A stretch of DNA of 64,000 nucleotides, taken from the NCBI GenBank assembly GCA_016705235.1, contig JADIYP010000005.1, positions 190,067 through 254,066 of the forward strand, read 5' to 3'. This DNA comes from Candidatus Leptovillus affinis (GTDB lineage: Bacteria; Chloroflexota; Anaerolineae; Promineifilales; Promineifilaceae). Numbering within the stretch: the first letter of the stretch is position 1; each line of letters starts with the position of its first letter. Below are positions 7,675 through 23,984 of this stretch, piece by piece. The position numbers and the translations under genes were made by a program. The notes beneath the pieces are model-generated. The model was not told where the DNA came from and searched no databases. It was given only the letters and a program-made list of their open reading frames with translations.

Positions 7675-10600
7675 ATGCGCGAAATCTTACCCCACAAACC
7701 CGGCCATTCTATGCATTTTGGTGGCCCTGTTGTGAACGCGAGTGCTTTGCTCCTGTCGGCGCTTACAGGAATCATCATGACCCTATCTTCTCCCACCAAA
7801 GCAGTCACACGAATACGCATCTATGGGACGCTGTTTGTCTTGATGGCGGTGGCGCGCTACTTGCTGCCGCCCGATGCCTGGCAGGGCAACCTGACGCGCC
7901 ACATGGCGCTGGAATTTATGGCCGCCATGCTGGCCGGTTTTGTGGGGATGTTGGCGTTGGTGCGCTATTTCACGCGCCGCGACAACGTGTTTTTGTTCAT
8001 TGGCGTTGGCTTTGTAGGAGCTGGGCTGTTGGATGGCTTGCATGTGCTGGCCATCTATCCGCATCTGGCTGATATTTTGCCCTGGCTAGAGTTTGCGCCG
8101 CGCTGGATTTGGAACACGTCACCGACGTTTCTTTCGATTTTGATATTTGGCAGTTGGCTGACGTGGCGGCGGGAAGTGGAAACGGGGTGGTACGGCCGTA
8201 TGACCGGCCGCCGCCTATTTATCCTCATTTTCAGCCTCACGCTGGTCAACCTGCTGCTGTTTGTATTGGTAGCTCAAAGCGAAGCCGCGCCCACGCTGCC
8301 CCTGGCGCGCGTCGAACTGTTTATCTCCACCACGTTTTACCTCTGGGCGCTGGTTAATTATCTGGCCAAAGGCCATTGGCAGCACGACGCCTTTGAGCAT
8401 TGGCTGGTCGTGGCCTTGCTTCTCAGCTTCTCCGGCCAGATGTTTTTCATGTTTTCCTCCGTCGCATTGTTCGACGCCTTCTTCGAAGTCGCTCTGGCCT
8501 TGAAGCTGGTGGGTTATTTTTGCGTGCTGGTCGGGTTGATGGGCAGTATTGTCATTATCTTTCGACAGGCGGCCGGCAGCGCCGCCCAATTACAGCAGGC
8601 CAATGATTTATTGCAACAAGAGATAGCCGAACGTCAACGGGCGGAACGGGCCGAGTATGAGCAGCGCCGTCTGGCCGAAGCGCTGCGCGAAGTGGGCAAC
8701 GCCCTCAGCGCTACCCTGGATTTTGACCAATTGTTGGAGCGGCTGCTGGACCAGATTGCCCACGTCGTGCCCTATGACACGGCCAATGTGATGTTGCTGC
8801 GCGGCGCGGAAGTGGACATTGTGTGTACGCGGGGATACGGCCGTTCCCAAACCCCGCTCATCAACCACTTTGCCCTCGTCGAGATGCCCAGCTTGCAGCA
8901 AATGGCCCAATCCCGCCAACCCCTTGTCATTCCCGACATCTCCGCCGATCCCGACTGGGTGCGCGCCGACGCATCGCCCCACGTGCGCTCCTGGGCGGGC
9001 ATTCCCATCGCCGTGCAGCAAGAAGTGGTTGCCTTTCTGGCGCTAAATTACAGCCAGCCCAATTTTTACCAGCCGGCCCACGCCACGCGCCTGGCCGCGT
9101 TTGCCGGGCAGGCGGCCATCGCCATCCAAAACGCCCGCCTGTACAAAGCCCTCCAGCAGCGCGTCGCCGAATTAACCACCCTGAATCAGATCAGCCACGC
9201 CGTCACCTCATCGCTGGATTTGCAGACCACGCTGACCATTGTCACGGCGCAGGCTACGCGGCTGTTAGACGTGGATGCGACCTCGGTGGTGTTGTTGGAC
9301 CGGGAGCAGGGCGATTTGTGGTTTGCCGCCGCGTTTGGGCAGGCGGCCGAATTTGTGCGCGGCAAGCGGCTGGCGTTGGGCCAGGGTATTGTGGGCTGGG
9401 TAGTCGAGCATGGCCAACCGCTGCTGATCACCGACGCCAAGGCCGACCAGCGCCACTTTCCCAATTTTGACGAGGTGAGCAAATTTACAGCGCGCACACT
9501 TTTATGCGCGCCCCTGCAAGTAAAAGGGCAGACGATTGGCGCGATAGAATCCATCAACAAAGCCACCGGGCCATTTGACGAGGCCGACTTGCGCCTGCTG
9601 ACGCTGTTGGCCGGTCCGGCGGCGGCGGCCATTGAAAATGCGCGGTTGTACGAACAGGCGCGGCGCGAGATTGAGGAACGGCTGCGGGCGGAGGCGGCCT
9701 TGCAGGCAGAGCGCGCCCAACTGGCGCAGCATGTGGCGGAGCGCACCGCCGACCTGAGCGCGGCGAATGCCGAACTGGCGCGTGCCAACCGGTTGAAGGA
9801 TGAATTTTTGGCGTCGATGAGCCATGAACTGCGCACGCCGCTGAATGCGCTGTTGGGCATCGGCGAGGCGCTGCAAGAGGGCGTGTATGGCACGCTAAAC
9901 AACAACCAGAGCCGGTCGCTGCGCAGCATTGAAGAAAGCGGCCGTCATCTGCTGAATTTGATCAACGATATTTTGGACCTGTCCAAGATTGAGGCCGGCA
10001 AGCTGGCTTTAGAGCCGGGACCGGTGTCGGTGCGGGAGGTGTGCCAGGCGAGTTTGCGTTTTATCCGGCAAGAGGCGCACAAGAAGGCATTGCTGGTTGA
10101 TTTGTCTGTGGACCCGGTCGTAACCACGATTTGGGCCGATGAGCGGCGGTTGAAGCAGATTTTGGTGAATTTGTTGAGTAATGCGGTGAAGTTTACGGCC
10201 GTTGGCGGCCACATTGGTCTGGAGGTGCAGGGCGACGCGGCGCAGCGGGCAGTCTGTTTTGTGGTGTGGGACCAAGGCATTGGCATTGCCCCGGAAGACA
10301 TGCAAAAGTTGTTTCGGCCGTTTGTGCAGCTAGACAGCCGCCTGTCGCGGGAATACAACGGCACCGGTCTGGGACTCTCGCTGGTGTATCGCATGGCTGA
10401 ACTGCATGGCGGCAGCGTTGGCCTGACCAGCGAGGTGGGGCGCGGCAGCCGGTTTACGGTGAGGCTGCCGTGGGATCCGGCGGATAAGCTGGGCCGGCCG
10501 GTAAACAAAACGGCGCAGTCGCCGACGGCCGTCCAGGCCACGGAGGGTAAACTCATTTTGTTGGCGGAGGATAACGAGATTTTTATTGAGACGGTGGGCG

Positions 10601-10908
10601 ATTATTTACGTGAGAAGGGTTATCGGTTATTGGTGGCGCGGAACGGCCGTGAAGCCATCGAGCAGGCGGCTATGCTGCCGGATTTGGTTCTGATGGATAT
10701 TCAGATGCCGGAAATGGACGGGTTGCAGGCGATTAAACGGCTGCGAGCAGATGAGACAACGGCCGTTTTACCCATCATCGCCCTGACAGCCCTGGCAATG
10801 CCCGGCGACCGCGAACGCTGCCTGGCCGCCGGAGCCGACGCTTATTTGAGCAAGCCCCTCAGCCTGAAAGCTTTGCTGGCGGTGATTGAGATGTTTCCCA
10901 AAGCGTGA
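7675..10908 (+). CDS. Hybrid sensor histidine kinase (multi-TM N-terminus, two GAF-like regions, HisKA, HATPase_c, C-terminal receiver)
   Basis: H-box SHELRTPLNALLG. ATPase boxes LLSNAVKFT and GTGLGLS. C-terminal REC segment LILLAEDNEI...DLVLMDIQMPEMDG...SKPL. The exact start is uncertain because several in-frame Met codons are available. Confidence 0.9.
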   Translation: MREILPHKPGHSMHFGGPVVNASALLLSALTGIIMTLSSPTKAVTRIRIYGTLFVLMAVARYLLPPDAWQGNLTRHMALEFMAAMLAGFVGMLALVRYFTRRDNVFLFIGVGFVGAGLLDGLHVLAIYPHLADILPWLEFAPRWIWNTSPTFLSILIFGSWLTWRREVETGWYGRMTGRRLFILIFSLTLVNLLLFVLVAQSEAAPTLPLARVELFISTTFYLWALVNYLAKGHWQHDAFEHWLVVALLLSFSGQMFFMFSSVALFDAFFEVALALKLVGYFCVLVGLMGSIVIIFRQAAGSAAQLQQANDLLQQEIAERQRAERAEYEQRRLAEALREVGNALSATLDFDQLLERLLDQIAHVVPYDTANVMLLRGAEVDIVCTRGYGRSQTPLINHFALVEMPSLQQMAQSRQPLVIPDISADPDWVRADASPHVRSWAGIPIAVQQEVVAFLALNYSQPNFYQPAHATRLAAFAGQAAIAIQNARLYKALQQRVAELTTLNQISHAVTSSLDLQTTLTIVTAQATRLLDVDATSVVLLDREQGDLWFAAAFGQAAEFVRGKRLALGQGIVGWVVEHGQPLLITDAKADQRHFPNFDEVSKFTARTLLCAPLQVKGQTIGAIESINKATGPFDEADLRLLTLLAGPAAAAIENARLYEQARREIEERLRAEAALQAERAQLAQHVAERTADLSAANAELARANRLKDEFLASMSHELRTPLNALLGIGEALQEGVYGTLNNNQSRSLRSIEESGRHLLNLINDILDLSKIEAGKLALEPGPVSVREVCQASLRFIRQEAHKKALLVDLSVDPVVTTIWADERRLKQILVNLLSNAVKFTAVGGHIGLEVQGDAAQRAVCFVVWDQGIGIAPEDMQKLFRPFVQLDSRLSREYNGTGLGLSLVYRMAELHGGSVGLTSEVGRGSRFTVRLPWDPADKLGRPVNKTAQSPTAVQATEGKLILLAEDNEIFIETVGDYLREKGYRLLVARNGREAIEQAAMLPDLVLMDIQMPEMDGLQAIKRLRADETTAVLPIIALTALAMPGDRERCLAAGADAYLSKPLSLKALLAVIEMFPKA

Positions 10909-10956
10909 AGCGCATGGCGGACCACAATCGTCTTGCCGACTTTTGGGGTCTGTGTA

Positions 10957-12033
10957 ATGACAATGAACGAGCAACCGGTAATTTTGATTGTAGATGATGA
11001 TTTTACGGCGCGGCAGACGGCGGAAATGCTGCTGCTGCAAGAGGGGTATGCGCTGCATTTTGCGGCCAGCGGGCCAGAGGCGCTGCAACGCCTGCCGGAA
11101 ATAAACCCCGACGTGATTTTGTTGGATGTGATGATGCCAGGCATGGATGGGTTTGTGGTGTGCCGGGCATTGAAAACGGCCGTTGCCACCCAACACATTC
11201 CTGTTGTCCTGGTGACGGCGCTGGACAGCAAAGAAGATGTGGCGCGCGGCCTGGACGCCGGAGCCGACGACTTTATCCACAAGCCCGTGAACGGACTGGA
11301 ACTGCGTGCCCGCGTGCGGTCTATGCTGCGCATTAAGCAGCGCCACGATGAACTGCAAACGATGATGCGCCTGCGTCAGGATTTGTCGGACATGATCATC
11401 CACGATATTCGCAGCCCGCTGACGACCATTACGATGTACTGCGATTTATTGCAGCGTTATACGCCCCAACCCGAGGCGCAAGAGGCGCTGCACACCATCA
11501 CCGGCCAGGTGGTCCGGCTGAATGCGTACCTGACGGACATGCTGATGATGGCCAAGATGGAGCATGGCAAGCTGGTGCTGCTGCAAACGGCCGTTACCCT
11601 GAACGATCTGCTGCAAACGGCCTGCGACGCCTATCAGCCGCTGGCGGCGCAAAGGTCGGTGACGCTGGCTCTGGAAATGCCGTCGGAGCCACTGACCGCC
11701 AGCCTGGACGCAAATTTATGGCAGCGTGTGCTGGATAATTTGTTGTCTAATGCGCTGAAATTTTCGCCGGTAAACGGCCGTGTCACAGTGCAGTTACGGC
11801 CGTTACCCAACGCCCAATTTTGTGTGCAAGTCTGCGACGAAGGACCAGGCATTCTGCCGGAACACCGCGAGACAATTTTCGATAAATTCCAGATTGTGGC
11901 CGCCGGACAGCGCGAAGTGAAGCAGGTTGGGTTAGGGCTGGCTTTTTGTCGTCTGGTGGTAGAGGCGCATAACGGCCGTATCGCCGTCCACGCCAACGAC
12001 CCCCACGGCGCAATCTTCACAGTGGAAGCGTAG
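10957..12033 (+). CDS. Receiver-histidine kinase fusion (REC-HisKA-HATPase_c)
   Basis: REC segment ILIVDDD...DVILLDVMMPGMDG...HKPV, then H-box HDIRSPLTTI and ATPase boxes LLSNALKFSP and GLGLAF. I prefer the ATG at 10957 to the alternative start at 10933 used in the track. Confidence 0.85.
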   Translation: MTMNEQPVILIVDDDFTARQTAEMLLLQEGYALHFAASGPEALQRLPEINPDVILLDVMMPGMDGFVVCRALKTAVATQHIPVVLVTALDSKEDVARGLDAGADDFIHKPVNGLELRARVRSMLRIKQRHDELQTMMRLRQDLSDMIIHDIRSPLTTITMYCDLLQRYTPQPEAQEALHTITGQVVRLNAYLTDMLMMAKMEHGKLVLLQTAVTLNDLLQTACDAYQPLAAQRSVTLALEMPSEPLTASLDANLWQRVLDNLLSNALKFSPVNGRVTVQLRPLPNAQFCVQVCDEGPGILPEHRETIFDKFQIVAAGQREVKQVGLGLAFCRLVVEAHNGRIAVHANDPHGAIFTVEA

Positions 12034-12134
12034 AGCGAGAGGGTAGAGCGAGAGCGAGAGGAAAAAATAAGCATTCTTTTTCTACGCTCCGCACTCCCCA
12101 CTTCGCACTCCCCACTTTTTAGGAGGGCTTATAG

Positions 12135-12854
12135 ATGGCTCCAAACATATTATTGGTTGACGATGACACCGAATTGGTTCGCAGCTTGCGGTTGGTGCTG
12201 ACGCAAGATGGGTATGAAGTTCTGACGGCGCACAATGGGCTGGAAGGGCTGCAAACCGCCCACCAGATGCAGCCTGATCTGATTGTGCTGGATGTGAACA
12301 TGCCGTGGATGGACGGCCTGGAAGTTTGCCGCCGCCTGCGCCTGGACACCGACTCGGCGCTGCGCTTTGTACCCATCCTCTTTCTGACATCGCAAGACAG
12401 CGTGGATGACCATGTAACCGGCCTGGACGCCGGGGCCGATGATTATCTGGACAAGCCCTTTCAATCGAAAGAGTTAAAAGCGCGGGTGCGCGCGCTGCTG
12501 CGGCGGCGTGAAGCTGCCACAGCGCTGCCGGCTGCCGATACGCCAGAATTGACGGTGGGACCGTTGACGCTGCATTTGCAGGCGTGTTGGGTGCGCCGGG
12601 GCAGCGGCGAGGCGGTGCAGCTTACCCCGGCCGAGTTTGAGCTGTTGTACCACCTGATGACGCACCCGAAACGGCCGTTTTCCAGTGAGAACCTGTTGGA
12701 AGAAGTATGGGCCTACGCGCCTGGCACGGCCGATCCCAGTCTGGTGCGCTGGCACATCAAAAATCTACGCCTCAAGATAGAGCCAAACGCCAGCCAGCCG
12801 TCACTCATTCGCACGGTGTCTCGCCGGGGCTATATGTTGGTCCCGGAAGGATAA
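12135..12854 (+). CDS. OmpR/PhoB-family response regulator (REC + winged-helix DNA-binding domain)
   Basis: REC segment ILLVDDD...DLIVLDVNMPWMDG...DKPF. Winged-helix segment LTPAEFELLYHLM...VRWHIKNLRLKIE...IRTVSRRGY. Confidence 0.9.
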   Translation: MAPNILLVDDDTELVRSLRLVLTQDGYEVLTAHNGLEGLQTAHQMQPDLIVLDVNMPWMDGLEVCRRLRLDTDSALRFVPILFLTSQDSVDDHVTGLDAGADDYLDKPFQSKELKARVRALLRRREAATALPAADTPELTVGPLTLHLQACWVRRGSGEAVQLTPAEFELLYHLMTHPKRPFSSENLLEEVWAYAPGTADPSLVRWHIKNLRLKIEPNASQPSLIRTVSRRGYMLVPEG

Positions 12855-12880
12855 AGACCTATCAGATTTCGTAAGTCGGC

Positions 12881-12913
12881 CCTCACGCAAGCCTCACGCA
12901 AGCCTCGCGCCTG
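12881..12913 (+). promoter_or_regulatory. Three tandem 11-bp direct repeats (CCTCACGCAAG CCTCACGCAAG CCTCGCGCCTG) between the OmpR-type regulator and the archaellin gene; candidate response-regulator binding site
   Basis: Read directly in the sequence. The 11-bp period equals one helical turn, as is usual for OmpR/PhoB boxes. A second direct repeat, GCAGCGCA, occurs at 12970 and 12990. Confidence 0.3.
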
Positions 12914-13041
12914 GCCCACGCTCCGCAAGATAAGTCTGTTGTACAGTAAGTACATCGAACAAAAACGGTGCAGCGCAAAAATCGAATAAGCAGCGCACCG
13001 AGAAAAAAATCAACATTCATATCTTGCATAAGGAGCAAAAA

Positions 13042-13629
13042 ATGAACAGCAACAATTTTTGGAAGAAGTTGGGTCGGGATGAAAGCGGTATCACCGCTCT
13101 GGAAACAGCCATCATCTTGATCGCCTTTATCGTGGTAGCTTCGGTTTTTGCCTTTACCATCCTGTCAGCCGGTACATTCTCCACAGAACGTGGTAAAGAA
13201 GCCGTCTACTCCGGTTTAGGCGAGGTGCAGTCCTCAATGGAAGTCAAAGGCTCCCTCATCGCCACGGCCGCCGTTAGCGGCACCACCGCTGCAGAAATGG
13301 ACACGTTGGTCTTTACGGTCGGCAACGTTGTTGGCGGTGAACCGCTGGACCTGAATACAACGACTCCGGTGATGGTGGTCAATTACGTAGACTCGGCGCA
13401 GTTCGAGAATGACTTGCCCTGGAGCACGAACTGGATTGTGTCCCACGACGGTGACGAACTGTTGGATAAAGGCGAACTGGTAGAAATTACTCTGGACCTG
13501 AGCAGCCTGACCACTCCTCTGGGCATCAATACGCAGTTCTCGGTAGAAATGAAACCGCCCAAAGGCGCGGCGCTGAGCATCCAACGCACCACCCCGCCCT
13601 ACTTCGACCAGGTGATGGACCTGAAATAA
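13042..13629 (+). CDS. arlB: Archaellin (archaeal-type flagellin, class III signal peptide)
   Basis: N-terminus MNSNNFWKKLGRDESG/ITALETAIILIAFIVVASVFAFTILSAG. It closely resembles crenarchaeal archaellin N-termini of the form ...KGLAGLDTAIILIAFIITASVLAY. AAGGAG lies 6 nt before the ATG at 13042; the track begins at an upstream TTG at 13024. Confidence 0.8.
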   Translation: MNSNNFWKKLGRDESGITALETAIILIAFIVVASVFAFTILSAGTFSTERGKEAVYSGLGEVQSSMEVKGSLIATAAVSGTTAAEMDTLVFTVGNVVGGEPLDLNTTTPVMVVNYVDSAQFENDLPWSTNWIVSHDGDELLDKGELVEITLDLSSLTTPLGINTQFSVEMKPPKGAALSIQRTTPPYFDQVMDLK

Positions 13630-13713
13630 CAAATCACAAGTTGCCACATGAATGAACAGTTCAGCCGGGCTTATGAGTCCGGCTAAACTGTTGTCAGCAA
13701 TAGGAGCAGTCTG

Positions 13714-14268
13714 ATGGACATCGAACAAAGAGTGAAATCTCTGGAACAAGAAATGAAGATTTTGAAGAATCAGGTTCAAAAAACGTTATTGGACATTCAA
13801 GAACAAATTCTCGTTCATTACCATCCGGCGCTCCGTACAGAAGATGAATCGTACGACGAAATCAGTGCCCCGGCGCGGGGCGCGACCAGACCGGCGTACA
13901 GCAATGGGCAGCCGGCGGCGGATTTCGAGCCGAACCAGCCCACAGGGTTGAAGGTACGTCAGGTTTCTTTGGCCGATTTGCGCGAGACGACACGGCCGTT
14001 ACCCGAAAAACTCCCCGCCGCCGCCACGCCTCCCGCCGCCGCCGACCAGTCTTTTGCCGGTCTGGTAGATTGGGTTGGGGGCAGCGTAGCCAAGATTGGC
14101 GCCGAGCGAACCCGTAAGCTGCTGGACCTGCGCGCATCTTCCGGCGCGGTTCCCCCAGACGTATACGATACGTTGCAGCAGTTGATTGTGTTATGTGACG
14201 AGAATGAAGGGGCAGATGCGGCGGAAACGGCCGTTCTGCTGCAACAACTCGCCCAACTACTGAACTAA
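13714..14268 (+). CDS. Hypothetical coiled-coil protein in the archaellum cluster (possibly ArlC/D/E-like; speculative)
   Basis: N-terminal coiled coil MDIEQRVKSLEQEMKILKNQVQKTLLDIQEQIL, a Pro/Ala-rich linker and a C-terminal globular part. The functional suggestion rests on position only. Confidence 0.4.
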   Translation: MDIEQRVKSLEQEMKILKNQVQKTLLDIQEQILVHYHPALRTEDESYDEISAPARGATRPAYSNGQPAADFEPNQPTGLKVRQVSLADLRETTRPLPEKLPAAATPPAAADQSFAGLVDWVGGSVAKIGAERTRKLLDLRASSGAVPPDVYDTLQQLIVLCDENEGADAAETAVLLQQLAQLLN

Positions 14269-14331
14269 CCACCGACAGATTGGTCCCATTTATTCGCCGG
14301 GTCTAATCGCTACAAGTACCAGAGGCATCAC

Positions 14332-14841
14332 ATGGACAAAGCAATCATGACCACAATGCTCATCGTCATCAGTATGGTGATGGGAGTTCTCCTGTTTAAC
14401 GCCGCCTATCCGGCCATCATCGAAAGCAACGACGCCATGACCAGCATGACCAGCCGCGCCGACGAAAAGCTAAAAAGCCAGATCACCATCGTCCATTCCG
14501 TGGGCGAGCTAGACAGCAGCAGTTGGTGGCAAGACACCAACGGCGACGGCGATTTCGACGTATTTGCCTGGGTTAAGAATGTGGGCGAAACGCGCATTGT
14601 GGCTTTGGAACAAACCGATGTGTTTTTTGGTCCTGAAGGCGCATTTAACCGCATTCCGCATCAAAGCGTCGCCAGCGGTTACCCCTATTGGACCTGGCAG
14701 GTGGAAAACGGCGGCCAATGGACGCCAACGGCCACCTTAAAAATTACCATTCATTATGGCGTGCCTTTGGGAAGCGGCCGTTACTTCCTCAAGGTCATCA
14801 CTCCCAACGGCGTAGACGCCGAATACTTCTTCAGCATGTAA
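14332..14841 (+). CDS. ArlF/ArlG-like archaellum protein (single N-terminal TM helix plus beta-rich domain)
   Basis: N-terminus MDKAIMTTMLIVISMVMGVLLFNAAYP. Its size and its position right after the archaellin fit FlaF/FlaG-type proteins. Confidence 0.5.
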   Translation: MDKAIMTTMLIVISMVMGVLLFNAAYPAIIESNDAMTSMTSRADEKLKSQITIVHSVGELDSSSWWQDTNGDGDFDVFAWVKNVGETRIVALEQTDVFFGPEGAFNRIPHQSVASGYPYWTWQVENGGQWTPTATLKITIHYGVPLGSGRYFLKVITPNGVDAEYFFSM

Positions 14842-14868
14842 ATCTGTTGAAAAAGTGGGATAGCTTTT

Positions 14869-15396
14869 ATGGAAACCATACTGACTGCTTTTATTGTCCT
14901 GGCTCTCATCTTGTTTGCCAGCCTCACCATTTTCACCGGCTACCTGAACGCGCAAGACACGCTGCGCGCCTCCTGGCAAGAGATGCAGACCCGCCTGAGC
15001 GACCAGATGCACACCGACCTCACGCCCATCTTGGCGCAAACCAAAAGTTCTGGCGCGGTCATCGAGCTAACACTGCGCAACGACGGCGACACCCGCCTGG
15101 CCGATTTCGCCGATTGGGATGTCATCGTCGAATACTACACCCCGCCTGGCGACCTTGCGGTGGGCTGGTACAGCTACAACGTCGGCGAACCGGCCGCCGG
15201 TGAGTGGAGCGTGATTGGCATTTATATAGACGCGGCCACGGCCGAGGGCGAAGTGTTTGAACCCGGGATTCTGAATCCGGGCGAGGAAGTTTTGCTGCGT
15301 CTGCGCGCCTTGCCCCCGGTCGGACCAAGCACCACCAATATGTTGACCATTGCCGCCGAGAATGGCGTGAGCGCCAGTATGCAGTTTGTGCGTTGA
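14869..15396 (+). CDS. ArlF/ArlG-like archaellum protein (second paralogue)
   Basis: N-terminus METILTAFIVLALILFASLTIFTGYL, about 175 aa, with the same architecture as 14332..14841. Confidence 0.5.
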   Translation: METILTAFIVLALILFASLTIFTGYLNAQDTLRASWQEMQTRLSDQMHTDLTPILAQTKSSGAVIELTLRNDGDTRLADFADWDVIVEYYTPPGDLAVGWYSYNVGEPAAGEWSVIGIYIDAATAEGEVFEPGILNPGEEVLLRLRALPPVGPSTTNMLTIAAENGVSASMQFVR

Positions 15397-15495
15397 TTGC
15401 CAGGCGCCTGGTTCAGGCGCAAGGCAACCTTTTTTTAGACATCGTAACCGATGCCATTTATTAGCAGTTCTGGCAAGTTTAACCGAGGGAAAAGC

Positions 15496-15903
15496 ATGAT
15501 TCAATTATCACCACCAGCCCGCAAGTCGGACCCGATTGATCTGGCCTATGCCCGCGACATCGTAGATGGCGACCTGGAATTGTTGCAAGAGATCGTGACG
15601 CTCTTTTTGTTCGATTGTTCGTACCAGGTGGCGGCGCTGCAAGAAGCTGTAGCCTCAGGCAGTGGAAACGCTGTAACAGCCAAAGCCCACCGCCTGAAGT
15701 GCAGCCTGGGTAACATCGGCGGTTGGCAGGCGTATCAATTGGTCTGCGAGATGGAACTCATGGGCTTGAGGAATGATCTGAGCGGGGCAGATGAGTGTTT
15801 GTTCCACCTGACAGCCGCGATGGAAGACATTGTGGCTTTCTTTGCGCAGCCGAACTGGGCGGAACAGGCAGAAGATGGGGCGACGTTCGACGAGGCACAA
15901 TGA
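15496..15903 (+). CDS. HPt (histidine phosphotransfer) domain protein
   Basis: AKAHRLKCSLGNIG fits the HPt H-x-x-K-G/S motif within a four-helix-sized protein. The ATG at 15496 follows GAGGGA. The stop overlaps the next start (ATGA at 15900). Confidence 0.65.
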   Translation: MIQLSPPARKSDPIDLAYARDIVDGDLELLQEIVTLFLFDCSYQVAALQEAVASGSGNAVTAKAHRLKCSLGNIGGWQAYQLVCEMELMGLRNDLSGADECLFHLTAAMEDIVAFFAQPNWAEQAEDGATFDEAQ

Positions 15904-16325
15904 ACCATTCGCATCGCATCCTGGCAATAGATGATGATCCGCTGACGCTGCACATTGTAGAGCATGTGCTGCAAAAGCATGGGTATGAGGTATTTACGGC
16001 TGGTAACGGCCACGATGGCCTGGAATTGGCCCGTGTTCTAAAACCCGACCTGGTGATTTTGGACATTATGATGCCGGGGTTGGATGGCTTTCAGGTGTGC
16101 CGCAAGCTGCGCGAAAACCCGGAAACGGCCGTTATCACCGTCCTCATGCTCACAGCCCGTGGCGCCATAGACAAACCGGTCAGCGACCCGGTGGATTTTG
16201 CCCAGCGGGTGCGCGACCAGCTTAACGGCTACCACGTGGGCGCATCCGATTTTCTGACCAAGCCGGTTAAAGCGGCCGTTCTGGTGGAAAGAGTGCGCTC
16301 GTTAATCTGGAGCGGTAGGAATTAA
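15900..16325 (+). CDS. CheY-like single-domain response regulator
   Basis: RILAIDDDPLTL...DLVILDIMMPGLDG...TKPV. Confidence 0.85.
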   Translation: MNHSHRILAIDDDPLTLHIVEHVLQKHGYEVFTAGNGHDGLELARVLKPDLVILDIMMPGLDGFQVCRKLRENPETAVITVLMLTARGAIDKPVSDPVDFAQRVRDQLNGYHVGASDFLTKPVKAAVLVERVRSLIWSGRN

Positions 16326-16326: not shown

Positions 16327-17385
16327 ATGGCACAGAAGATTTTGGTCATTGAAGATGATGTGCAGATGTTGGCATGGACCCAAGGCCTCCTGGAAGACGA
16401 AGGCTACGATGTGCTGGTGGCTATTGACGATGGGGCAGGATTAAAAACGGCCGTGTCCGAAAAACCCGATCTCATCCTGCTAGACATTTTTTTGCCCGGC
16501 ATGGACGGCGAAGAAGTCGCCCGCTATTTACGCGCCGACCCCGAAACGGCCGAAATCCCCCTCATCATGCTCGCCAACGACAGCCAGCTAGACAGCCTCA
16601 CCATCGGCCACGAATCTCCCGTAGACGATTACCTCATCAAGCCCTTCGATGCCGTTACACTGGTCACTAAAATCCTGCCCTACCTGGGTCGCAAAGGACC
16701 GCAAAAAAGCGTCATTTCCTCCGGCAACGGCGAATTAGACAGCAAAATGGGCGGCGGCATTCCCTTAGGCTCTCTCACCCTTGTCGAAGGCAGTTCTGGG
16801 GCCGGCAAATCCGTCCTTTCGCAGCAAATGATATTTGGCTCCCTAAACGACAGCTTCACCCTATCGCTGTTTACCAGCGAAAACAGCGTCAGAAGCCTGG
16901 TGAAACAAATGCGCAGCCTGGACCTGGATATTCTGGACTATTTGCTCCTGGGCAAAATCCGTGTTTACCCGATGGAACTATCCCGTTTAGGCAACACAGC
17001 CCCCCGACTGCTGCTTCAGGCCATGAGCCAGGAAACCAGCCGCGACATGATCATCGTCGATTCGTTGACGCTGGCTATTGGCCAATCCACCCTCGAAGAA
17101 GTATTGGGGTTTTTTGAGGAATGCAAGCGGCTTTGCGCGCGCGGCAGCAGCATCATCCTCATCTTACATTCCCACGCGCTCAACAGTGAATTGTTGGTGC
17201 GCATCCGCTCATTGTGCGACGCGCATTTGCAGCTTCGCACCGAAGAAGTAGGCAAAAAACTGGTTAAAACGTTGGAAGTAACCAAAGTTCGTGGCGCGGA
17301 CAAAACCACCGGCAATATCGTCAGCTTTGAAGTGGAACCCGGATGGGGTATGCGCGTCATCCCGGTAAGCAAAGTGAAGGGATAG
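16327..17385 (+). CDS. arlH: Receiver domain fused to ArlH/FlaH (KaiC/RecA-like archaellum ATPase)
   Basis: Residues 1 to about 125 form a REC domain: KILVIEDD...DLILLDIFLPGMDG...IKPF. The C-terminal part is ISSGNGELDSKMGGGIPLGSLTLVEGSSGAGKSVLSQQMIFGS...FTSENSVRSLVKQMRSLDLDI, matching the FlaH consensus and including a Walker A motif. Confidence 0.8.
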   Translation: MAQKILVIEDDVQMLAWTQGLLEDEGYDVLVAIDDGAGLKTAVSEKPDLILLDIFLPGMDGEEVARYLRADPETAEIPLIMLANDSQLDSLTIGHESPVDDYLIKPFDAVTLVTKILPYLGRKGPQKSVISSGNGELDSKMGGGIPLGSLTLVEGSSGAGKSVLSQQMIFGSLNDSFTLSLFTSENSVRSLVKQMRSLDLDILDYLLLGKIRVYPMELSRLGNTAPRLLLQAMSQETSRDMIIVDSLTLAIGQSTLEEVLGFFEECKRLCARGSSIILILHSHALNSELLVRIRSLCDAHLQLRTEEVGKKLVKTLEVTKVRGADKTTGNIVSFEVEPGWGMRVIPVSKVKG

Positions 17386-17481: not shown

Positions 17482-19239
17482 ATGTCTCAATCAGTCCTTC
17501 CTTTCCCATTTCAAACAGGTGGCGCGCAGTGCAACCACGGTGTGGGATGCAGCCTGCAAATGGTGCTGCCGCCGCCGCTGCGCGACGCTTGCGAACGGGC
17601 AGATTTCCTGGCGGATTATTTGCACCAGGTTCCGTTGGGCGACATCGGGATTCCCGTGTATTACCCCACGCTTTCACGCAAGCTGCAACTGTTGGAACGA
17701 CGCAACCTCATTTATCCTATTGACGGCGGTTTGTTTGTCCACATTTACCCCGACGCTGTCGCGGCCCGCGACCATTATGTCTCCATAGAACCAACTGTAA
17801 TGGTGAATCTGGATGAGGTGATGCTGAAGATTGACGAGCGTCTGGTGGAATGGGCCGAAGACATTGGGGAGGTAGTAGACGAAGAAGAAAAGAAGCAGAT
17901 GCTGCTAAAGTTACTTGACCAAATTTGCACAACGGAACTGCCACAGGCTAATGGCAGTGGGAACGGGAACGGGAACGGCCGTACCCCATCCGCCAAAGCC
18001 GCCGCCAGAAAAAGCAAAACCGACCCCATTTACGTTACCGCGCAGCAACTGGAAGGCGTGCGTTACCGCGTCCTGCGCGACAAAGTTGGGCTTGGGCCAC
18101 TACAGCCGCTGCTGCTGGACCCCTACATAGAAGACATCAGTTGCAGCGGCGTCGGGGCCATCTTCGTTGAACACAAAATCTTCAAAAGCCTGCAAACCAC
18201 CATCAACTTCGAGACCCTGGACCAACTCGACGATTTCGCCGTCTGGCTGGGCGAATGGATCAAAAGCCCGGTGACTGTGCGCAACCCCATCGTGGATGCC
18301 GTGTTGCCGGATGGGTCACGTATTAACATTGTGTACGGCCGTGAGATCTCCAAACGCGGCAGCAACTTCACCATCCGCAAGTTCGGCGGTTCCACCACCA
18401 GCATCATGGAACTTATCGAATACGGCACGCTGGATTACACCATGGCCGCCTACCTTTCGCTCATCATGGAGGAGGGGATGAACGTCTTTGTTGTCGGGGC
18501 CACAGCCTCCGGCAAAACGACGACGTTGAACGCCATCAACACCTTCATTTTGCCGGAAGCCAAAATCATCACCATCGAAGACACCCCTGAAGTGATGGTT
18601 CCCCACAAAAACTGGATTCGGGAAGTCACCCGCGATATGGGGCGCGAGTCCGCAGGGGGCAGCGTGGGCATGTTCGATCTACTCAGAGCGGCGCTGCGGC
18701 AGCGGCCGGATCGCATCATCATCGGTGAAATTCGTGGCGAAGAAGGACGCATCGCCTTTCAGGCCATGCAAACCGGTCATGGCGTCATGTCTACCTTTCA
18801 CGCCGCCTCAGTGGAAAAACTGATCCAACGTCTCACCGGCGACCCCATCAACGTGCCCAAAACTTATATAGACAACCTCAACGTCGCCGTGGTGCAATCG
18901 GCCGTGCGCCTGGCCGACAAAAAAATGGCCCGCCGCATCCTTAGCATCAATGAAATCATCGGCTATGACCCTTATACAGAAAGTTTCTCCTTTCTGGAAA
19001 CTTTTCGCTGGAATCCGGCCAATGACACATTCGAGTTTCCCGGCTATATGAACAGCTTCTTGCTGGAAGAGCGCATTGCTATGCGGCGCGGCATTCCGCC
19101 CCAAAAGCGCAAAATGATTTATACCGAATTGAAACGCCGGGCAACCGTTTTTCAACGGCTGCATAAAGAAAAAGGAGTGCGTGGTTTTGATGACTTCTTC
19201 CAAATCCTTGCCGAAGCCCATCGCCAAAAGCTCTTATAA
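17482..19239 (+). CDS. arlI: ArlI/FlaI-type secretion-superfamily ATPase (archaellum motor/assembly ATPase)
   Basis: Walker A GATASGKTTTLNAI, Walker B DRIIIGEIRG, a His box TGHGVMSTFHA and an N-terminal FlaI-like region NLIYPIDGGLFVHIY...YVSIEP. Confidence 0.85.
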   Translation: MSQSVLPFPFQTGGAQCNHGVGCSLQMVLPPPLRDACERADFLADYLHQVPLGDIGIPVYYPTLSRKLQLLERRNLIYPIDGGLFVHIYPDAVAARDHYVSIEPTVMVNLDEVMLKIDERLVEWAEDIGEVVDEEEKKQMLLKLLDQICTTELPQANGSGNGNGNGRTPSAKAAARKSKTDPIYVTAQQLEGVRYRVLRDKVGLGPLQPLLLDPYIEDISCSGVGAIFVEHKIFKSLQTTINFETLDQLDDFAVWLGEWIKSPVTVRNPIVDAVLPDGSRINIVYGREISKRGSNFTIRKFGGSTTSIMELIEYGTLDYTMAAYLSLIMEEGMNVFVVGATASGKTTTLNAINTFILPEAKIITIEDTPEVMVPHKNWIREVTRDMGRESAGGSVGMFDLLRAALRQRPDRIIIGEIRGEEGRIAFQAMQTGHGVMSTFHAASVEKLIQRLTGDPINVPKTYIDNLNVAVVQSAVRLADKKMARRILSINEIIGYDPYTESFSFLETFRWNPANDTFEFPGYMNSFLLEERIAMRRGIPPQKRKMIYTELKRRATVFQRLHKEKGVRGFDDFFQILAEAHRQKLL

Positions 19240-20680
19240 ATTTAAGAACATCACGGCTTTTGACCAGTTTTACCAGTTGACCTACATGTCGGCTACGGCC
19301 GCTGCCGGCATCTCGCGCAGCAAAACGTTTGAAATGGCGGCGGAATCCGGTTCGCCGGCGGCCAATTATTTTATCGCCATCAATTTGCTGGTGAATGAAC
19401 TCCGTTTCGACTACCCGGAAGCGTGCCGCACGGTGGCCGATAAAGCGCCCTCGGACGAGATCAAAAGTTTCCTGCTGCGCCTGTCCGACGCGATGCGGTC
19501 TGGCGAGCCGTTGCCCGCTTTTCTGGCCCGCGAAGCGGCGGTGCAGGCGAATGTGTACGATAACGCCTACGAACGCGATCTGGAATCGCTGAAAAAATGG
19601 TCGGATGCGTTTTCTTCGATTGTGGTTTCGGTGGCCCTGATTGTGATCATTAATTTGGTATCGACGATGATTTATTCGATGGGCACGGGCATGATTACCG
19701 GGTTGGTGATAACGGCCGTGATCATGGGTTTCTTTGGCGCCTGGATTCTCTCCCGCGCTGCTCCACAAGAAGAGATGACCATTCCCTCGGCCATAGGGTC
19801 AGACGGCCAGCGGCGTACCCTGCAATTAAGCCGTATTATCATCCCCACGGCCGTTCTCCTCGGCGGTGTTTTGGCATTTCTCGGGTTTAGCCAGGTATGG
19901 GTACTGGTAGCCGTATCGGCCGTGCTGCTGCCTCTGGGCATCGTCAGCTCGCGGGCCGACGCGGAAATCACCAAAAAAGACGCCGAAATCAGTTCGTTTT
20001 TACGCTCGGTAGGCGGCATGGCTACTTCCACCGGCACCACCCTCAAAGAAGCCATCACCAAAATAGACATCAGCTCCTTTCCCCGGCTTCAACCCGATGT
20101 AAAGCGGTTGGATACGCGCCTGCGTGCCCTGGTCAGCCCAACGGTTTGCTGGCAGCGCTTTGGCAACGAGACCGGCAGCCGCCTGATTCGGCAGGCTGTC
20201 GGCATTTTTTACGAAGCGGTACGCCTGGGCGGCGATCCGGAACAAGTGGGATTTCTTTGCTCAATGTTTGCGTCGCGCACCGCGATGCTGCGCGCAAAAA
20301 GGCGCACGGTAGTCAGCACGTTTACCTGGCTAACGCTGGTTATGCATATCGTCGTCGCCGCGCTGATGGTATTTGTACTGCACATCATTCACAACTTCTT
20401 GCTCCTGATGCAATCGGCCATGACGGCGGATCAGGCGGCGTTGGCCTCGGAAAATCTGGCGATGCCGCTGGCTAATTTTAGCCCGCAGCAGATGCAGTTT
20501 CTGGACGCCATTACCATCATGATGGTGGTCTTGCTGGCGGTTATCAGCGCGATGGCCATCGTCGCCAGTGATGGCGGGTATAAATTTAAGCTCACGCTTT
20601 ACCTGGCGGTGCTGCTTTTTATGTCGGGCATTAGCTTCTGGATTGTGCCGCCTATGGTAGCGCAGTTGTTGACAATTTGA
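19181..20680 (+). CDS. arlJ: ArlJ/FlaJ-type polytopic membrane platform protein (T2SSF/TadC-like)
   Basis: About 500 aa with two T2SSF-like repeats and multiple TM helices, immediately after arlI. The start is ambiguous (GTG 19181 or ATG 19190). Confidence 0.75.
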   Translation: MVLMTSSKSLPKPIAKSSYKFKNITAFDQFYQLTYMSATAAAGISRSKTFEMAAESGSPAANYFIAINLLVNELRFDYPEACRTVADKAPSDEIKSFLLRLSDAMRSGEPLPAFLAREAAVQANVYDNAYERDLESLKKWSDAFSSIVVSVALIVIINLVSTMIYSMGTGMITGLVITAVIMGFFGAWILSRAAPQEEMTIPSAIGSDGQRRTLQLSRIIIPTAVLLGGVLAFLGFSQVWVLVAVSAVLLPLGIVSSRADAEITKKDAEISSFLRSVGGMATSTGTTLKEAITKIDISSFPRLQPDVKRLDTRLRALVSPTVCWQRFGNETGSRLIRQAVGIFYEAVRLGGDPEQVGFLCSMFASRTAMLRAKRRTVVSTFTWLTLVMHIVVAALMVFVLHIIHNFLLLMQSAMTADQAALASENLAMPLANFSPQQMQFLDAITIMMVVLLAVISAMAIVASDGGYKFKLTLYLAVLLFMSGISFWIVPPMVAQLLTI

Positions 20681-22098: not shown

Positions 22099-22099
22099 C

Positions 22100-22711
22100 A
22101 TGGACCTGCTATGGTTGATTTTGGGGTTTTTGTTGGGCTGGTTGTTGAACTGGCTGAGCGACTTTTTACCGTGCCGCCTGGCTAAAACGCCGCGCCCGGC
22201 CAATCTACGGGGACGCGCTGCTGGCTTGCCCTGGATGATAGGGGCGATGACGGCCGTGGCCTGTTATTACTTTGGCTTGCGCGGGCAATGGGTCTCTCTA
22301 GTCTTGTACGCATTTTTCTTGTTGATTGCCCTGATCGACGGCAAACACAGGTTGGTCCTGAACGTGCTGGTGTACCCGGCTATCGCCCTGACGCTGGTTT
22401 ATCATCTGGTCGCCGGGGGGCAGTCCTGGACGGCCGTATGGTTGGGCGGAGGCTTGGCCCTGGCTGCTTTTGTCCTGGCTGCCTGGCTGCGCCCCGGCGA
22501 TTTGGGCGGCGGCGACGTGAAACTGGCGGCGCTGATTGGCCTGATCTTCGGTTTCCCTGGTGTGTTGTGGCCGCTGCTGCTGGGTGTAGGGCTGGGTGGA
22601 TTGGCCGCCGCCTATTTGCTGCTGCGTGGATACGGCCGTCGCTATCACATCCCCTATGCTCCCTTTTTGTCCCTTGGCGTCTTTATCGCTCTTCTTTACA
22701 CCCCTCTCTAA
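22100..22711 (+). CDS. Peptidase A24 family prepilin/preflagellin peptidase
   Basis: MDLLWLILGFLLGWLLNWLSD..., a first Asp box LIALIDGKHRLV and a second Asp box GGGDVKLAALIGLIFG. The ATG at 22100 follows the upstream stop directly. The 5' part of track ORF 21584..22711 is an out-of-frame overlap with the upstream gene. Confidence 0.85.
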   Translation: MDLLWLILGFLLGWLLNWLSDFLPCRLAKTPRPANLRGRAAGLPWMIGAMTAVACYYFGLRGQWVSLVLYAFFLLIALIDGKHRLVLNVLVYPAIALTLVYHLVAGGQSWTAVWLGGGLALAAFVLAAWLRPGDLGGGDVKLAALIGLIFGFPGVLWPLLLGVGLGGLAAAYLLLRGYGRRYHIPYAPFLSLGVFIALLYTPL

Positions 22712-23979: not shown

Positions 23980-23984
23980 ACACC

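What the first reader, a model, noticed from the sequence alone, without database searches (positions are those of the whole stretch)
7675..16325. Dedicated multi-step phosphorelay wrapped around the archaellum genes
**Seen in the sequence.**
- Upstream of arlB lie a hybrid HK (GAF-GAF-HisKA-HATPase-REC), a REC-HK and an OmpR-type regulator.
- Inside the cluster lie an HPt protein and a stand-alone CheY-like receiver, directly before the REC-ArlH gene.
- Three tandem 11-bp repeats (12881..12913) and a 20-bp-spaced GCAGCGCA pair (12970 and 12990) sit between the OmpR gene and arlB.
- There are no cheA, cheW, MCP or cheF genes in the window.

**Inference.** Transcription of the archaellin may be controlled through OmpR boxes. 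Motor control may run through hybrid HK to HPt to REC/REC-ArlH. Both appear to be driven by two-component signalling rather than by a Che pathway.
Basis: partly seen in the sequence, partly recalled or inferred. Interest (0 to 1): 0.65.

Follow-up and report, generated by a model that had tools for sequence, protein, structure and literature searches.

The report
Phosphorelay wired into a bacterial archaellum
A Chloroflexota bacterium carries an archaeal-type swimming motor whose regulatory ATPase ArlH is fused to a phospho-receiver domain and sits beside its own phosphotransfer proteins, which suggests how bacteria steer this borrowed motor without the archaeal adaptor CheF.

Summary
The window comes from an uncultured Anaerolineae (Ardenticatenaceae-like) bacterium with a complete archaellum operon.

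The central element is a receiver (REC) domain fused to ArlH. This fusion occurs in at least 41 species-representative genomes and hundreds of metagenome proteins. It is not mentioned in the archaellum papers I could search.

Across 123 distinct archaellum loci:
- A stand-alone, fully canonical receiver lies directly upstream of arlH in 32 of 42 fused loci and 0 of 81 plain-ArlH loci.
- HPt domains, hybrid kinases and che genes also associate only with fused loci.

The window's HPt is orthologous to the C-terminal HPt of REC-HK-REC-HPt kinases. In sister lineages those kinases sit between a che cluster and REC-ArlH. "Instead of Che" is therefore a feature of this locus, not of the system.

Upstream of arlB there are four 11-bp-phased repeats and a -10-like block. 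Five species that also keep the OmpR-type gene conserve them. The GCAGCGCA pair is not conserved.

All phosphotransfer routes and DNA binding remain inferred.

Verdict: new variant of a known kind; interest about 0.7.

The parts
7675..10908 (+). Membrane hybrid histidine kinase: MASE3, GAF, GAF, HisKA (H717), HATPase_c, REC
   Evidence: Pfam. H-box and receiver residues. The same gene lies in the same place in L001, L084 and L166, and is frameshifted in L088.
10933..12033 (+). Soluble REC-HisKA-HATPase kinase (H157). The probable start is the ATG at 10957 or 10963.
   Evidence: Pfam. Residues and start codons. Conserved between the hybrid kinase and the OmpR gene in L001, L084, L166 and L088.
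12135..12854 (+). OmpR/PhoB-type response regulator (REC plus winged helix)
   Evidence: Pfam. Directly upstream of arlB in 7 of 31 fused loci against 1 of 57 plain loci.
12881..12924 (.). Four 11-bp-phased direct repeats (CCTCACGCAAG x2, CCTCGCGCCTG, GCCCACGCTCC). This is the candidate binding array of the OmpR-type regulator.
   Evidence: TRF. Unique in the window. The CTCAC/CTCGC/ACGCTC cores are invariant in five species while the rest of the spacer diverges.
12936..12950 (+). Conserved block GTTGTACAGTAAGTA with a -10-like TACAGT. This is the inferred core promoter of arlB, with no -35 consensus.
   Evidence: Alignment A1. The sigma-70 consensus scan finds no full promoter. The promoter role is inferred.
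12966..13000 (+). Leader hairpin that contains the two GCAGCGCA copies
   Evidence: Fold at z -2.3. The stem is kept by compensatory or wobble changes in L084 and L001 and is absent in L087 and L088. Weak evidence.
13042..13629 (+). Archaellin arlB (ATG at 13042 behind AAGGAG)
   Evidence: Pfam Arch_flagellin, E 4e-27. Start codon.
13714..14268 (+). ArlD/E-like switch-complex protein: N-terminal coiled coil, Pro-rich linker, C-terminal helical domain
   Evidence: The family is present in all arl loci, including Methanosarcinales. Five of 23 members hit PF04659 Arch_fla_DE; the window member itself has no hit. Sequence.
14332..14841 (+). ArlG-like stator protein, assigned by position and an N-terminal hydrophobic helix
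   Evidence: Conserved position in all loci. No family hit. The published arlG-arlF order in Chloroflexota comes from PMC12488501.
14869..15396 (+). ArlF-like stator protein
   Evidence: Weak Pfam FlaF_Ig-like and Arch_flagellin hits. Weak NCBIfam ArlF hit.
15451..15903 (+). Stand-alone HPt phosphotransfer protein (alternative start ATG at 15496). The phospho-accepting His lies in AHRLK.
   Evidence: Pfam. Orthologous to the C-terminal HPt of REC-HK-REC-HPt kinases in sister loci, with the His invariant.
15900..16325 (+). Single-domain CheY-like receiver (D12/D13, D55, T85, K122) with an insert of roughly a dozen residues after beta4
   Evidence: Pfam. All catalytic residues are invariant in the 24 intact orthologues. 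Translationally coupled to both neighbours. Found only next to fused arlH: 32 of 42 against 0 of 81.
16327..17385 (+). REC-ArlH fusion: a receiver (E9, D10, D11, D53, A83, K105) joined to a KaiC-like ArlH ATPase (Walker A 155-162, Walker B D245)
17482..19239 (+). ArlI motor and assembly ATPase
   Evidence: Pfam T2SSE, E 1e-40. 50-97% identical to ArlI in 80 loci.
19181..20680 (+). ArlJ membrane platform protein
   Evidence: Pfam T2SSF. Conserved synteny.
21064..25073 (+). Conserved downstream genes: o344 (21064-22098), prepilin peptidase A24 (22100-22711), PilN-like (23107-23979), o362 (23985-25073)
   Evidence: Pfam. Start codon of the peptidase. Same order in most Chloroflexota loci.

Best explanation
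The window holds a bacterial (Anaerolineae) archaellum operon with two signalling modules built in.

**Motor module: HPt, REC and REC-ArlH (translationally coupled genes)**
- ArlH is the KaiC-like regulator of the ArlI motor ATPase. Here it carries its own receiver domain.
- Next to it lie a cognate single-domain receiver and an HPt protein.
- Phosphoryl groups reach HPt (H80). In this lineage the most likely source is the adjacent MASE3-GAF-GAF hybrid kinase (His717 to its own receiver Asp).
- HPt passes them to the stand-alone receiver (D55) and/or the ArlH receiver (D53).
- This changes ArlH oligomerisation or its engagement with ArlI, and so changes assembly or rotation of the archaellum.
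- The module replaces the archaeal CheY-CheF-ArlCDE route. CheF is absent.

**Transcription module: REC-HK and the OmpR/PhoB-type regulator**
- The regulator binds four 11-bp-phased direct repeats next to a -10-like element that lacks a -35.
- It activates arlB in the manner of a pho box.

**Shown:** domain content, catalytic residues, gene coupling, lineage-wide co-occurrence, conservation of the cis-element.

**Inferred:** every phosphotransfer step, the effect on the motor, DNA binding, and the promoter.
For: **Domains and residues**
- All domains score above the family cut-offs.
- The ArlH domain matches FlaH 4YDS by sequence (E 8e-31) and by fold (target-normalised TM-score 0.86). The Walker A and B motifs are invariant in 119 homologues.
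- Every phospho-site of a His-Asp-His-Asp relay is present in the window proteins.
- The HPt and REC genes overlap in ATGA, and the REC gene ends one base before the REC-arlH ATG.

**Spread of the fusion**
- 41 of 117 ArlH loci in species-representative genomes are fused.
- All but one of the 120 best-matching protein clusters carry the fusion.

**Co-occurrence across 123 distinct loci**
- A stand-alone receiver directly upstream of arlH: 32 of 42 fused, 0 of 81 plain (Fisher 4e-21, not corrected for phylogeny).
- HPt: 19 of 31 against 0 of 57.
- Kinases: 20 of 31 against 5 of 57.
- An OmpR-type gene before arlB: 7 of 31 against 1 of 57.

**Links to Che systems and to neighbouring kinases**
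- The window HPt aligns end to end with the HPt of REC-HK-REC-HPt kinases of sister loci.
- The HK-REC core of those kinases is the best match there to the window's hybrid kinase.
- Homologues of the REC gene lie inside che operons.

**cis-element**
- The repeats and the -10-like block are conserved in five species in which ArlI identity falls to 81%.
- The array occurs nowhere else in the window.

**Literature**
- The literature states that CheF is absent in Chloroflexota and that another coupling component is expected (PMC12488501).
Against: - No experiment exists.
- The acceptor Asp of the ArlH receiver is kept in only 69% of 119 family members. The conserved Thr is Ala in 82%. Phosphorylation of that domain therefore cannot be universal.
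- L087 and L088 have no HPt-like sequence within 10 kb. L088 keeps the hybrid kinase, REC-HK and the OmpR gene; in L087 only the OmpR gene is visible before the contig ends. Both keep the boxes. The kinase-to-HPt link is therefore not required.
- Several fused loci have no signalling gene nearby (L081, L121, L198).
- The co-occurrence statistics are not corrected for phylogeny.
- The NJ tree suggests that the fused loci are one or a few clades.
- No sigma-70 consensus promoter is detected upstream of arlB.
Confidence: 0.6

Rival explanations
1. Docking model. The receiver fused to ArlH is mainly a structural docking domain, not a phospho-acceptor. The phosphorelay ends on the stand-alone CheY-like receiver. 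In its phosphorylated form that receiver binds the ArlH receiver (receiver-receiver contact) and so acts on the motor. The fused domain would then play the part that CheF/ArlCDE or FliM play elsewhere.
For: - The stand-alone receiver keeps every catalytic residue in the 24 intact orthologues.
- The fused receiver lacks the acceptor Asp in 31% of 119 members and has Ala at the conserved Thr position in 82%.
- Loci whose fused receiver has lost the Asp (L002, L003, L114, L115, L089) still keep the stand-alone receiver, and some also keep the che and HPt genes.
- The stand-alone receiver occurs only beside fused arlH.
Against: - In the window and its nearest relatives the fused receiver has the acidic pocket, D53 and K105.
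- Ten fused loci lack an adjacent stand-alone receiver.
- No interaction model could be computed.
Confidence: 0.3
2. Che-fed model. The motor module of this organism is driven by a chemosensory (CheA) system encoded elsewhere in the genome, as in sister lineages. The adjacent hybrid kinase, REC-HK and OmpR genes control only transcription of arlB.
For: - In at least 14 sister loci MCP-CheA(REC)-CheB-REC-[REC-HK-REC-HPt]-REC-REC:ArlH form one array.
- An HPt-REC pair closes an F1-type che operon in L317.
- L088 keeps the kinase/OmpR set and L087 at least the OmpR gene, and neither has an HPt within 10 kb. The two modules are therefore separable.
Against: - There is no che gene in 64 kb.
- The window's hybrid kinase ends in a receiver that needs an HPt partner, and the only HPt in the window lies in the arl operon.
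- A preprint reports that most archaellum-bearing Chloroflexota lack an F1 CheA: 57 of 226 have one (10.64898/2026.05.11.724246).
Confidence: 0.3
3. Chance neighbourhood. The hybrid kinase, REC-HK and OmpR genes regulate something else, for example the divergently oriented GH32 and GH81 sugar-hydrolase genes, and the 11-bp repeat is incidental.
For: - Two-component genes are very common in Chloroflexota genomes. The preprint counts 51 additional response regulators in L. aerophila.
- GH32 and GH81 genes lie just upstream on the other strand.
Against: - The OmpR-arlB adjacency recurs in at least 8 species.
- The repeat array lies in the OmpR-arlB spacer and is conserved where everything around it has diverged.
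- The trio is co-oriented with the arl operon.
Confidence: 0.1

Closest known systems
Archaeal CheY-CheF-ArlCDE coupling of chemotaxis to the archaellum (Euryarchaeota)
   Same: A CheY-like single-domain receiver encoded with or near arl genes controls an ArlH/ArlI/ArlJ motor. An ArlD/E-like protein is retained. Sister loci have a full che cluster next to the motor genes.
   Different: No CheF is present (PMC12488501). The receiver is fused to ArlH itself. An HPt step and hybrid kinases are inserted. All of this occurs in a bacterium.
Branched His-Asp-His-Asp phosphorelays: hybrid kinase, then HPt, then two receivers (for example CckA-ChpT-CtrA/CpdR or RcsC-RcsD-RcsB; from my own knowledge)
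   Same: A hybrid kinase with a C-terminal receiver, a separate HPt with an HxxK motif, one single-domain receiver and one receiver with an output domain. All phospho-sites are present.
   Different: The output domain is a KaiC-like ATPase of a type-IV-filament rotary motor, not a DNA-binding or protease-adaptor domain. The partner assignment is inferred from gene neighbourhood only.
ArlH/FlaH of archaea (PDB 4YDS, 4WIA)
   Same: Single RecA/KaiC-like domain with invariant Walker A and B motifs, encoded directly upstream of arlI-arlJ. Target-normalised TM-score 0.86 to 4YDS.
   Different: There is an N-terminal receiver of about 120 residues joined by a short low-confidence linker. All archaeal and Dehalococcoidia ArlH in the arl loci sampled lack it.
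PhoB/OmpR-type activation from direct repeats with 11-bp phasing that replace the -35 element (pho box; from my own knowledge)
   Same: A winged-helix OmpR-family regulator is encoded next to the target. Four direct repeats lie at 11-bp phase just upstream of a -10-like element with no -35 consensus.
   Different: The repeat sequence (CTCACGCAAG) is unrelated to known boxes. Binding and the transcription start are untested. More distant relatives (L105, L117) have a different conserved spacer.
Che-type control of type IV pilus ATPases by CheY-like receivers (Pil-Chp PilG/PilH; cyanobacterial Pix/Tax systems; from my own knowledge)
   Same: Receivers fed by CheA-REC hybrid kinases act on a type-IV-filament motor. 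The sister loci use a CheA with a C-terminal receiver.
   Different: Here the receiver is covalently part of the motor regulator, and the filament rotates rather than extending and retracting.

Membership tests
ArlH/FlaH (archaellum KaiC-like ATPase) | Single RecA/KaiC-like domain with Walker A and Walker B motifs | tested here: met
   GSSGAGKS at 155-162 and D245 are invariant in 119 homologues. Pfam PF06745.
ArlH/FlaH (archaellum KaiC-like ATPase) | Curated family model score above cut-off | tested here: inconclusive
   NCBIfam FlaH subfamily PRK06067 scores 262 bits against a cut-off of 194 (met). The ArlH equivalog NF052589 scores 201.5 against a cut-off of 215 (just missed).
ArlH/FlaH (archaellum KaiC-like ATPase) | Fold and sequence closest to solved FlaH structures | tested here: met
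   4YDS: E 8e-31 over residues 129-349. Foldseek target-normalised TM-score 0.86, rmsd 2.4 Å.
ArlH/FlaH (archaellum KaiC-like ATPase) | Encoded directly upstream of arlI-arlJ in an arl operon | tested here: met
ArlH/FlaH (archaellum KaiC-like ATPase) | Autophosphorylation, hexamer formation and binding to ArlI | not testable with these tools
   These need biochemistry or a multimer prediction.
CheY-like receiver (REC) domain: the one fused to ArlH | Acidic pocket, phospho-acceptor Asp, conserved Thr/Ser, conserved Lys | tested here: inconclusive
   The window protein has E9, D10, D11, D53 and K105, but Ala at the Thr/Ser position. Across the family the Asp is kept in 69%.
CheY-like receiver (REC) domain: stand-alone gene 15900-16325 | Acidic pocket, phospho-acceptor Asp, conserved Thr, conserved Lys | tested here: met
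   DDD, D55, T85 and K122 are invariant in the 24 intact orthologues.
CheY proper (chemotaxis response regulator) | Embedded in a chemosensory gene cluster with CheA, CheW and MCP | tested here: not met
   There are no che genes in the window. The feature is met for orthologues in sister loci and for homologues in L317 and L318.
HPt phosphotransfer protein | Pfam Hpt above the gathering score and a conserved His in an HxxK(G) motif | tested here: met
   26.9 bits against a cut-off of 24.6. AHRLKC, with the His invariant in 18 homologues; the Gly position is Cys in the window clade.
HPt phosphotransfer protein | Four-helix-bundle fold | not tested
   No structure was predicted for this protein.
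Hybrid histidine kinase | HisKA H-box His, HATPase_c and a C-terminal receiver with Asp | tested here: met
OmpR/PhoB response regulators | Receiver plus Trans_reg_C winged helix | tested here: met
OmpR/PhoB response regulators | Binds direct repeats near its target promoter | not testable with these tools
   Candidate repeats exist and are conserved. Binding needs EMSA or footprinting.
Archaeal chemotaxis-archaellum adaptor system (CheF plus ArlCDE) | A CheF (PF04283) gene is present | tested here: not met
   None of the ORFs scanned has a CheF hit. The literature reports CheF absent in Chloroflexota.
Archaeal chemotaxis-archaellum adaptor system (CheF plus ArlCDE) | An ArlC/D/E protein is present | tested here: inconclusive
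   Five of 23 members of the o184 family hit Arch_fla_DE weakly (best E 4e-4). The window member has no hit.

The most novel reading that the evidence does not exclude
REC-ArlH is the missing coupling device of the bacterial archaellum.
- After the archaellum was transferred from archaea without CheF, Anaerolineae fused a receiver domain to the motor's KaiC-like regulator.
- Che systems or hybrid-kinase/HPt phosphorelays could then deliver phosphoryl groups, or a phosphorylated CheY-like partner, straight to the ArlH ring.
- This would switch ArlH oligomerisation or ArlI engagement, and with it assembly or rotation.
- The input kinase would be interchangeable: CheA-fed REC-HK-REC-HPt in some lineages, and a MASE3-GAF hybrid kinase with a split-off HPt in this one.
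Probability: 0.45. Interest if true: 0.8.

Novelty: new variant of a known kind. Interest (0 to 1): 0.7.

Why it matters
**The open question.** The only experimental study of a bacterial archaellum (PMC12488501) leaves open how signals reach the motor. CheF is absent, and "another protein component" is expected. A later preprint disputes that the lone receiver in the L. aerophila cluster is a CheY at all.

**What this locus and its relatives offer.**
- A concrete, testable candidate: a receiver fused to ArlH, always partnered with a canonical single-domain receiver, often with an HPt, and in many species directly downstream of a che cluster.
- A genomic argument that the disputed receiver family is che-linked.
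- An example of a horizontally acquired archaeal machine being rewired to bacterial signalling by domain fusion and exchange of input modules.
- A defined promoter element for studying archaellin regulation in bacteria.

Tried and rejected
1. **First locus search with REC-ArlH.** It was swamped by generic receiver hits and gave only three true loci. I replaced it with an ArlI search and an alignment-based search.
2. **Hidden receiver in plain-ArlH Aggregatilineales loci.** I suspected a degenerate receiver in the roughly 700-bp gap before arlH. I rejected this. The arlH ORFs are about 240 aa with no extension, and the gap is a longer ArlF with C-terminal repeats.
3. **GCAGCGCA pair as a regulator box.** I rejected this. 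It is not conserved in L001, L087 or L088, and the octamer is common in the window. A weak leader hairpin is the better reading.
4. **Sigma-70 consensus scan upstream of arlB.** It found nothing. The promoter assignment rests on conservation only.
5. **che genes elsewhere in this lineage.** I scanned species genomes with the CheA of L002. The scan missed even the known CheA genes of sister loci, so it is uninformative.
6. **L. aerophila ArlH.** I tried to learn whether it carries the receiver. It is not stated in the paper or its supplement and the protein was not among the listed homologues.
7. **More distant REC-KaiC/ArlH-like proteins (36-46% identity).** I examined them as possible further archaellum cases. 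The two contexts I checked are not arl loci, so they are paralogous signalling ATPases.
8. **HPt in the REC-only loci.** I searched by tblastn and found none.

Full report
**What is in the window**

On the + strand, 7.7-25 kb holds one co-oriented gene array. In order:
- a MASE3-GAF-GAF-HisKA-HATPase-REC hybrid kinase (7675-10908);
- a REC-HisKA-HATPase kinase (10933-12033);
- an OmpR/PhoB-type regulator (12135-12854);
- arlB (ATG at 13042);
- three small genes;
- an HPt protein (15451-15903);
- a single-domain receiver (15900-16325);
- REC-ArlH (16327-17385);
- ArlI, ArlJ, a conserved 344-aa protein, a prepilin peptidase, a PilN-like protein and a further conserved protein.

The first small gene belongs to a family of which 5 of 23 members hit Arch_fla_DE. 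The third gives weak ArlF hits. The order is therefore arlB-arlD/E-like-arlG-like-arlF, as published for Chloroflexota (PMC12488501).

The HPt stop overlaps the REC start (ATGA). The REC stop is one base before the REC-arlH ATG. These three genes are therefore translationally coupled.

The rest of the window has no CheA, CheW, MCP, CheB, CheR or CheF domain. It holds a type I CRISPR-Cas locus and housekeeping genes. The one addition is the MASE3 membrane domain.

**Source organism**

The closest loci are MAGs of Chloroflexota, Ardenticatenaceae-like, with ArlI 90-97% identical. This is therefore a bacterial archaellum of the kind described by Sivabalasarma et al..

**All phospho-sites are present**

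| Protein | Key residues |
|---|---|
| Hybrid kinase | H717 (HELRTP), receiver Asp |
| REC-HK | H157, full receiver |
| OmpR-type regulator | full receiver |
| HPt | H80 in AHRLK |
| Stand-alone REC | DDD, D55, T85, K122 |
| REC-ArlH | E9, D10, D11, D53, K105, with Ala at the Thr position |

The ArlH half is a genuine FlaH/ArlH:
- Walker A and B are invariant in 119 homologues.
- 4YDS matches at E 8e-31.
- The AlphaFold model has mean pLDDT 83, and its only segment below pLDDT 50 is the linker at 122-126.
- The Foldseek target-normalised TM-score to 4YDS is 0.86.
- NCBIfam FlaH scores above its cut-off.

**The fusion is a family, not a one-off**

- A protein search gave 1300 hits at E <= 1e-20. 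All but one of the best 120 are 350-384 aa with Response_reg plus the KaiC ATPase; the exception is a 272-aa protein without a Response_reg hit. The named sources are Anaerolineae or Chloroflexota.
- An alignment-based scan of species-representative genomes found 117 ArlH loci, 41 of them fused.
- I built local profiles from the window proteins and mapped domains on 160 fetched loci.
- The core order arlB-arlD/E-like-arlG-arlF-arlH-arlI-arlJ is shared with Methanosarcinales archaea.
- The receiver on ArlH occurs only in one part of the Anaerolineae. Aggregatilineales-type Anaerolineae, Dehalococcoidia and archaea have plain ArlH of about 240 aa.
- A rough NJ tree of ArlI places the fused loci in one or a few related clades.

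**Signalling genes follow the fusion**

Counts below are from 123 distinct loci with enough upstream sequence.

| Feature | Fused loci | Plain loci |
|---|---|---|
| Single-domain receiver directly before arlH | 32 of 42 | 0 of 81 |
| HPt within 7 kb | 19 of 31 | 0 of 57 |
| Histidine kinase | 20 of 31 | 5 of 57 |
| che genes | 14 of 31 | 1 of 57 |
| OmpR-type gene directly before arlB | 7 of 31 | 1 of 57 |

The Fisher test for the first row gives 4e-21. These counts are not corrected for shared ancestry and must be read as descriptive.

The upstream arrangements fall into four classes:
- MCP-CheA(REC)-REC:CheB-REC-[REC-HK-REC-HPt]-REC-REC:ArlH;
- stand-alone HPt-REC-REC:ArlH, as in the window, its three nearest relatives and L105/L183, or a hybrid kinase ending in HPt followed by REC (L117);
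- REC only;
- nothing.

**Origin of the window's HPt and kinase**

- The window HPt aligns over its whole length with the C-terminal HPt of the REC-HK-REC-HPt kinases, with the His invariant.
- The HK-REC core of those kinases is the best match in their loci to the C-terminal half of the window's hybrid kinase.
- The simplest reading is an exchange of input modules. A che-fed receiver input in sister lineages corresponds to a MASE3-GAF-GAF sensor input here, with the HPt as a separate gene.
- Homologues of the stand-alone receiver also lie inside che operons elsewhere, once preceded by a separate HPt.
- This receiver family is therefore che-associated by genomic context. That bears on the dispute over the L. 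aerophila "cheY", which occupies the same position between arlF and arlH.

**Limits of the relay model**

- The acceptor Asp of the fused receiver is kept in only 82 of 119 family members, and the conserved Thr is Ala in most.
- Loci that lost the Asp still keep the canonical stand-alone receiver, and some also keep che and HPt genes.
- A docking role for the fused domain is therefore a serious rival, at least in those lineages.
- L088 keeps the hybrid kinase, REC-HK and the OmpR gene; in L087 the contig ends just upstream of the OmpR gene. Both keep the boxes, and neither has an HPt-like sequence within 10 kb.
- The transcription module and the motor module are thus separable, and the kinase-to-HPt step is the weakest link.
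- In the window it remains the parsimonious pairing. The hybrid kinase ends in a receiver that needs an HPt, and the only HPt in 64 kb lies in the arl operon.

**The arlB upstream region**

- TRF finds the 11-bp repeat.
- Aligning the OmpR-arlB spacers of five species, with ArlI identity down to 81%, shows four 11-bp-phased units with invariant CTCAC/CTCGC/ACGCTC cores. A conserved GTTGTA(C/A)AGTA block follows, with a -10-like TA(C/A)AGT. The remaining spacer differs in length (194-344 bp) and sequence.
- The array is unique in the window.
- No -35 consensus is present.
- This is the layout of activator-dependent promoters of the PhoB type. That comparison rests on my own knowledge, and the promoter is inferred.
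- More distant relatives with an OmpR-type gene before arlB (L105, L117) share a different spacer motif with a clear TGCTATACT-type -10.
- The GCAGCGCA pair is exact only in the window and nearly so in L084. It lies in a weak hairpin whose stem is kept by compensatory or wobble changes in L084 and L001. It is not good evidence for a protein box.

**Literature**

The archaellum papers on Chloroflexota in the library mention a cheY homologue, the absence of CheF and the need for another coupling component. They do not mention a receiver on ArlH, an HPt or linked kinases. The title of a cited study states that ArlH autophosphorylation inhibits its oligomerisation and its interaction with ArlI. 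That gives a plausible point of action for a fused receiver.

**Wider family**

An exhaustive search of 50%-identity representatives found 56 REC-KaiC/ArlH-like architectures among the best 150. Most have fully canonical receivers. Relatives of one of these distant representatives (P0264; 36-46% identical to it, 39% to the window protein) are named as Dehalococcoidia or Chloroflexota proteins. The two contexts I inspected are not archaellum loci. The architecture therefore also exists as a free-standing signalling ATPase. Only the branch 54% or more identical to the window protein was seen in arl operons.

**Verdict**

- It is corrected on three points: che is not excluded and is ancestral or parallel; the second repeat is not a box; and the kinase-HPt pairing is uncertain.
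- The system is a new variant of known kinds (phosphorelay, CheY-type motor control, ArlH). Its domain fusion addresses a published open question.

Noticed in passing
window 26406-40359 and 41466-42941: A type I CRISPR-Cas locus (Cas4, Cas1, a WYL regulator, Cas3, Cas7/DevR, Cas6). It is followed by a CRISPR array of roughly 20 units with the 37-nt repeat GTCGCCCCACCAGAGAATCGCCAGAGATTACTGAAAC.
   Followed up: partly
window 17386-17481: The arlH-arlI spacer holds a 16-nt tandem repeat (2.8 copies). It folds into a long hairpin of -33 kcal/mol with z -4.1. In the close relative L001 this spacer is only about 15 nt. The element could be an RNA processing or stability site or a small insertion.
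   Followed up: partly
window 20734-21040: A 78-bp tandem repeat (2.4 copies) lies after arlJ. Each unit carries 13-bp inverted arms (AAACCCTTGGGGT...ACCCCAAGGGTTT). Seven of the nine matches to the arm in the window lie here. It may be a terminator or a REP-like element.
   Followed up: partly
L090, L091, L096-L098, L101, L102 (about 13.7-14.3 kb in the full-flank loci; 7.6-8.4 kb in L096 and L101): Aggregatilineales-type archaellum loci have plain ArlH. They carry a GAF-histidine kinase gene inserted between the conserved 344-aa gene and the prepilin peptidase. Their ArlF has a C-terminal repeat extension of about 200 aa.
   Followed up: partly
L003 10004-11794; L115 and L184 likewise: These loci have REC-ArlH and a second, plain ArlH in tandem. 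The fused copy has Gly in place of the acceptor Asp.
   Followed up: partly
L317 306-6721: An F1-like che operon (cheA-cheC-cheD-cheY-cheB-cheR) ends with a separate HPt gene and a receiver 47% identical to the window's stand-alone receiver. There are no arl genes within the 13.7 kb of the locus fetched.
   Followed up: no
L319 8525-11519; L320 10001-11149: More distant REC-KaiC/ArlH-like proteins of Chloroflexota lie outside archaellum loci. One sits between a REC-histidine kinase and a single receiver; the other is an orphan.
   Followed up: partly
L001 9154-9550; L089 7484-8800: Extra single-domain receiver genes lie in the arl operon. L001 has one before the HPt gene, and L089 has three in tandem before REC-arlH.
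   Followed up: no
window 43379-46117 and 48786-51488: Two large MalT/LuxR-type regulators (AAA_16, MalT TPR, GerE) flank zinc-dependent dehydrogenase genes.
   Followed up: no
window 2252-7232 (- strand): GH81 and GH32 glycoside hydrolase genes are oriented divergently from the hybrid kinase.
   Followed up: no
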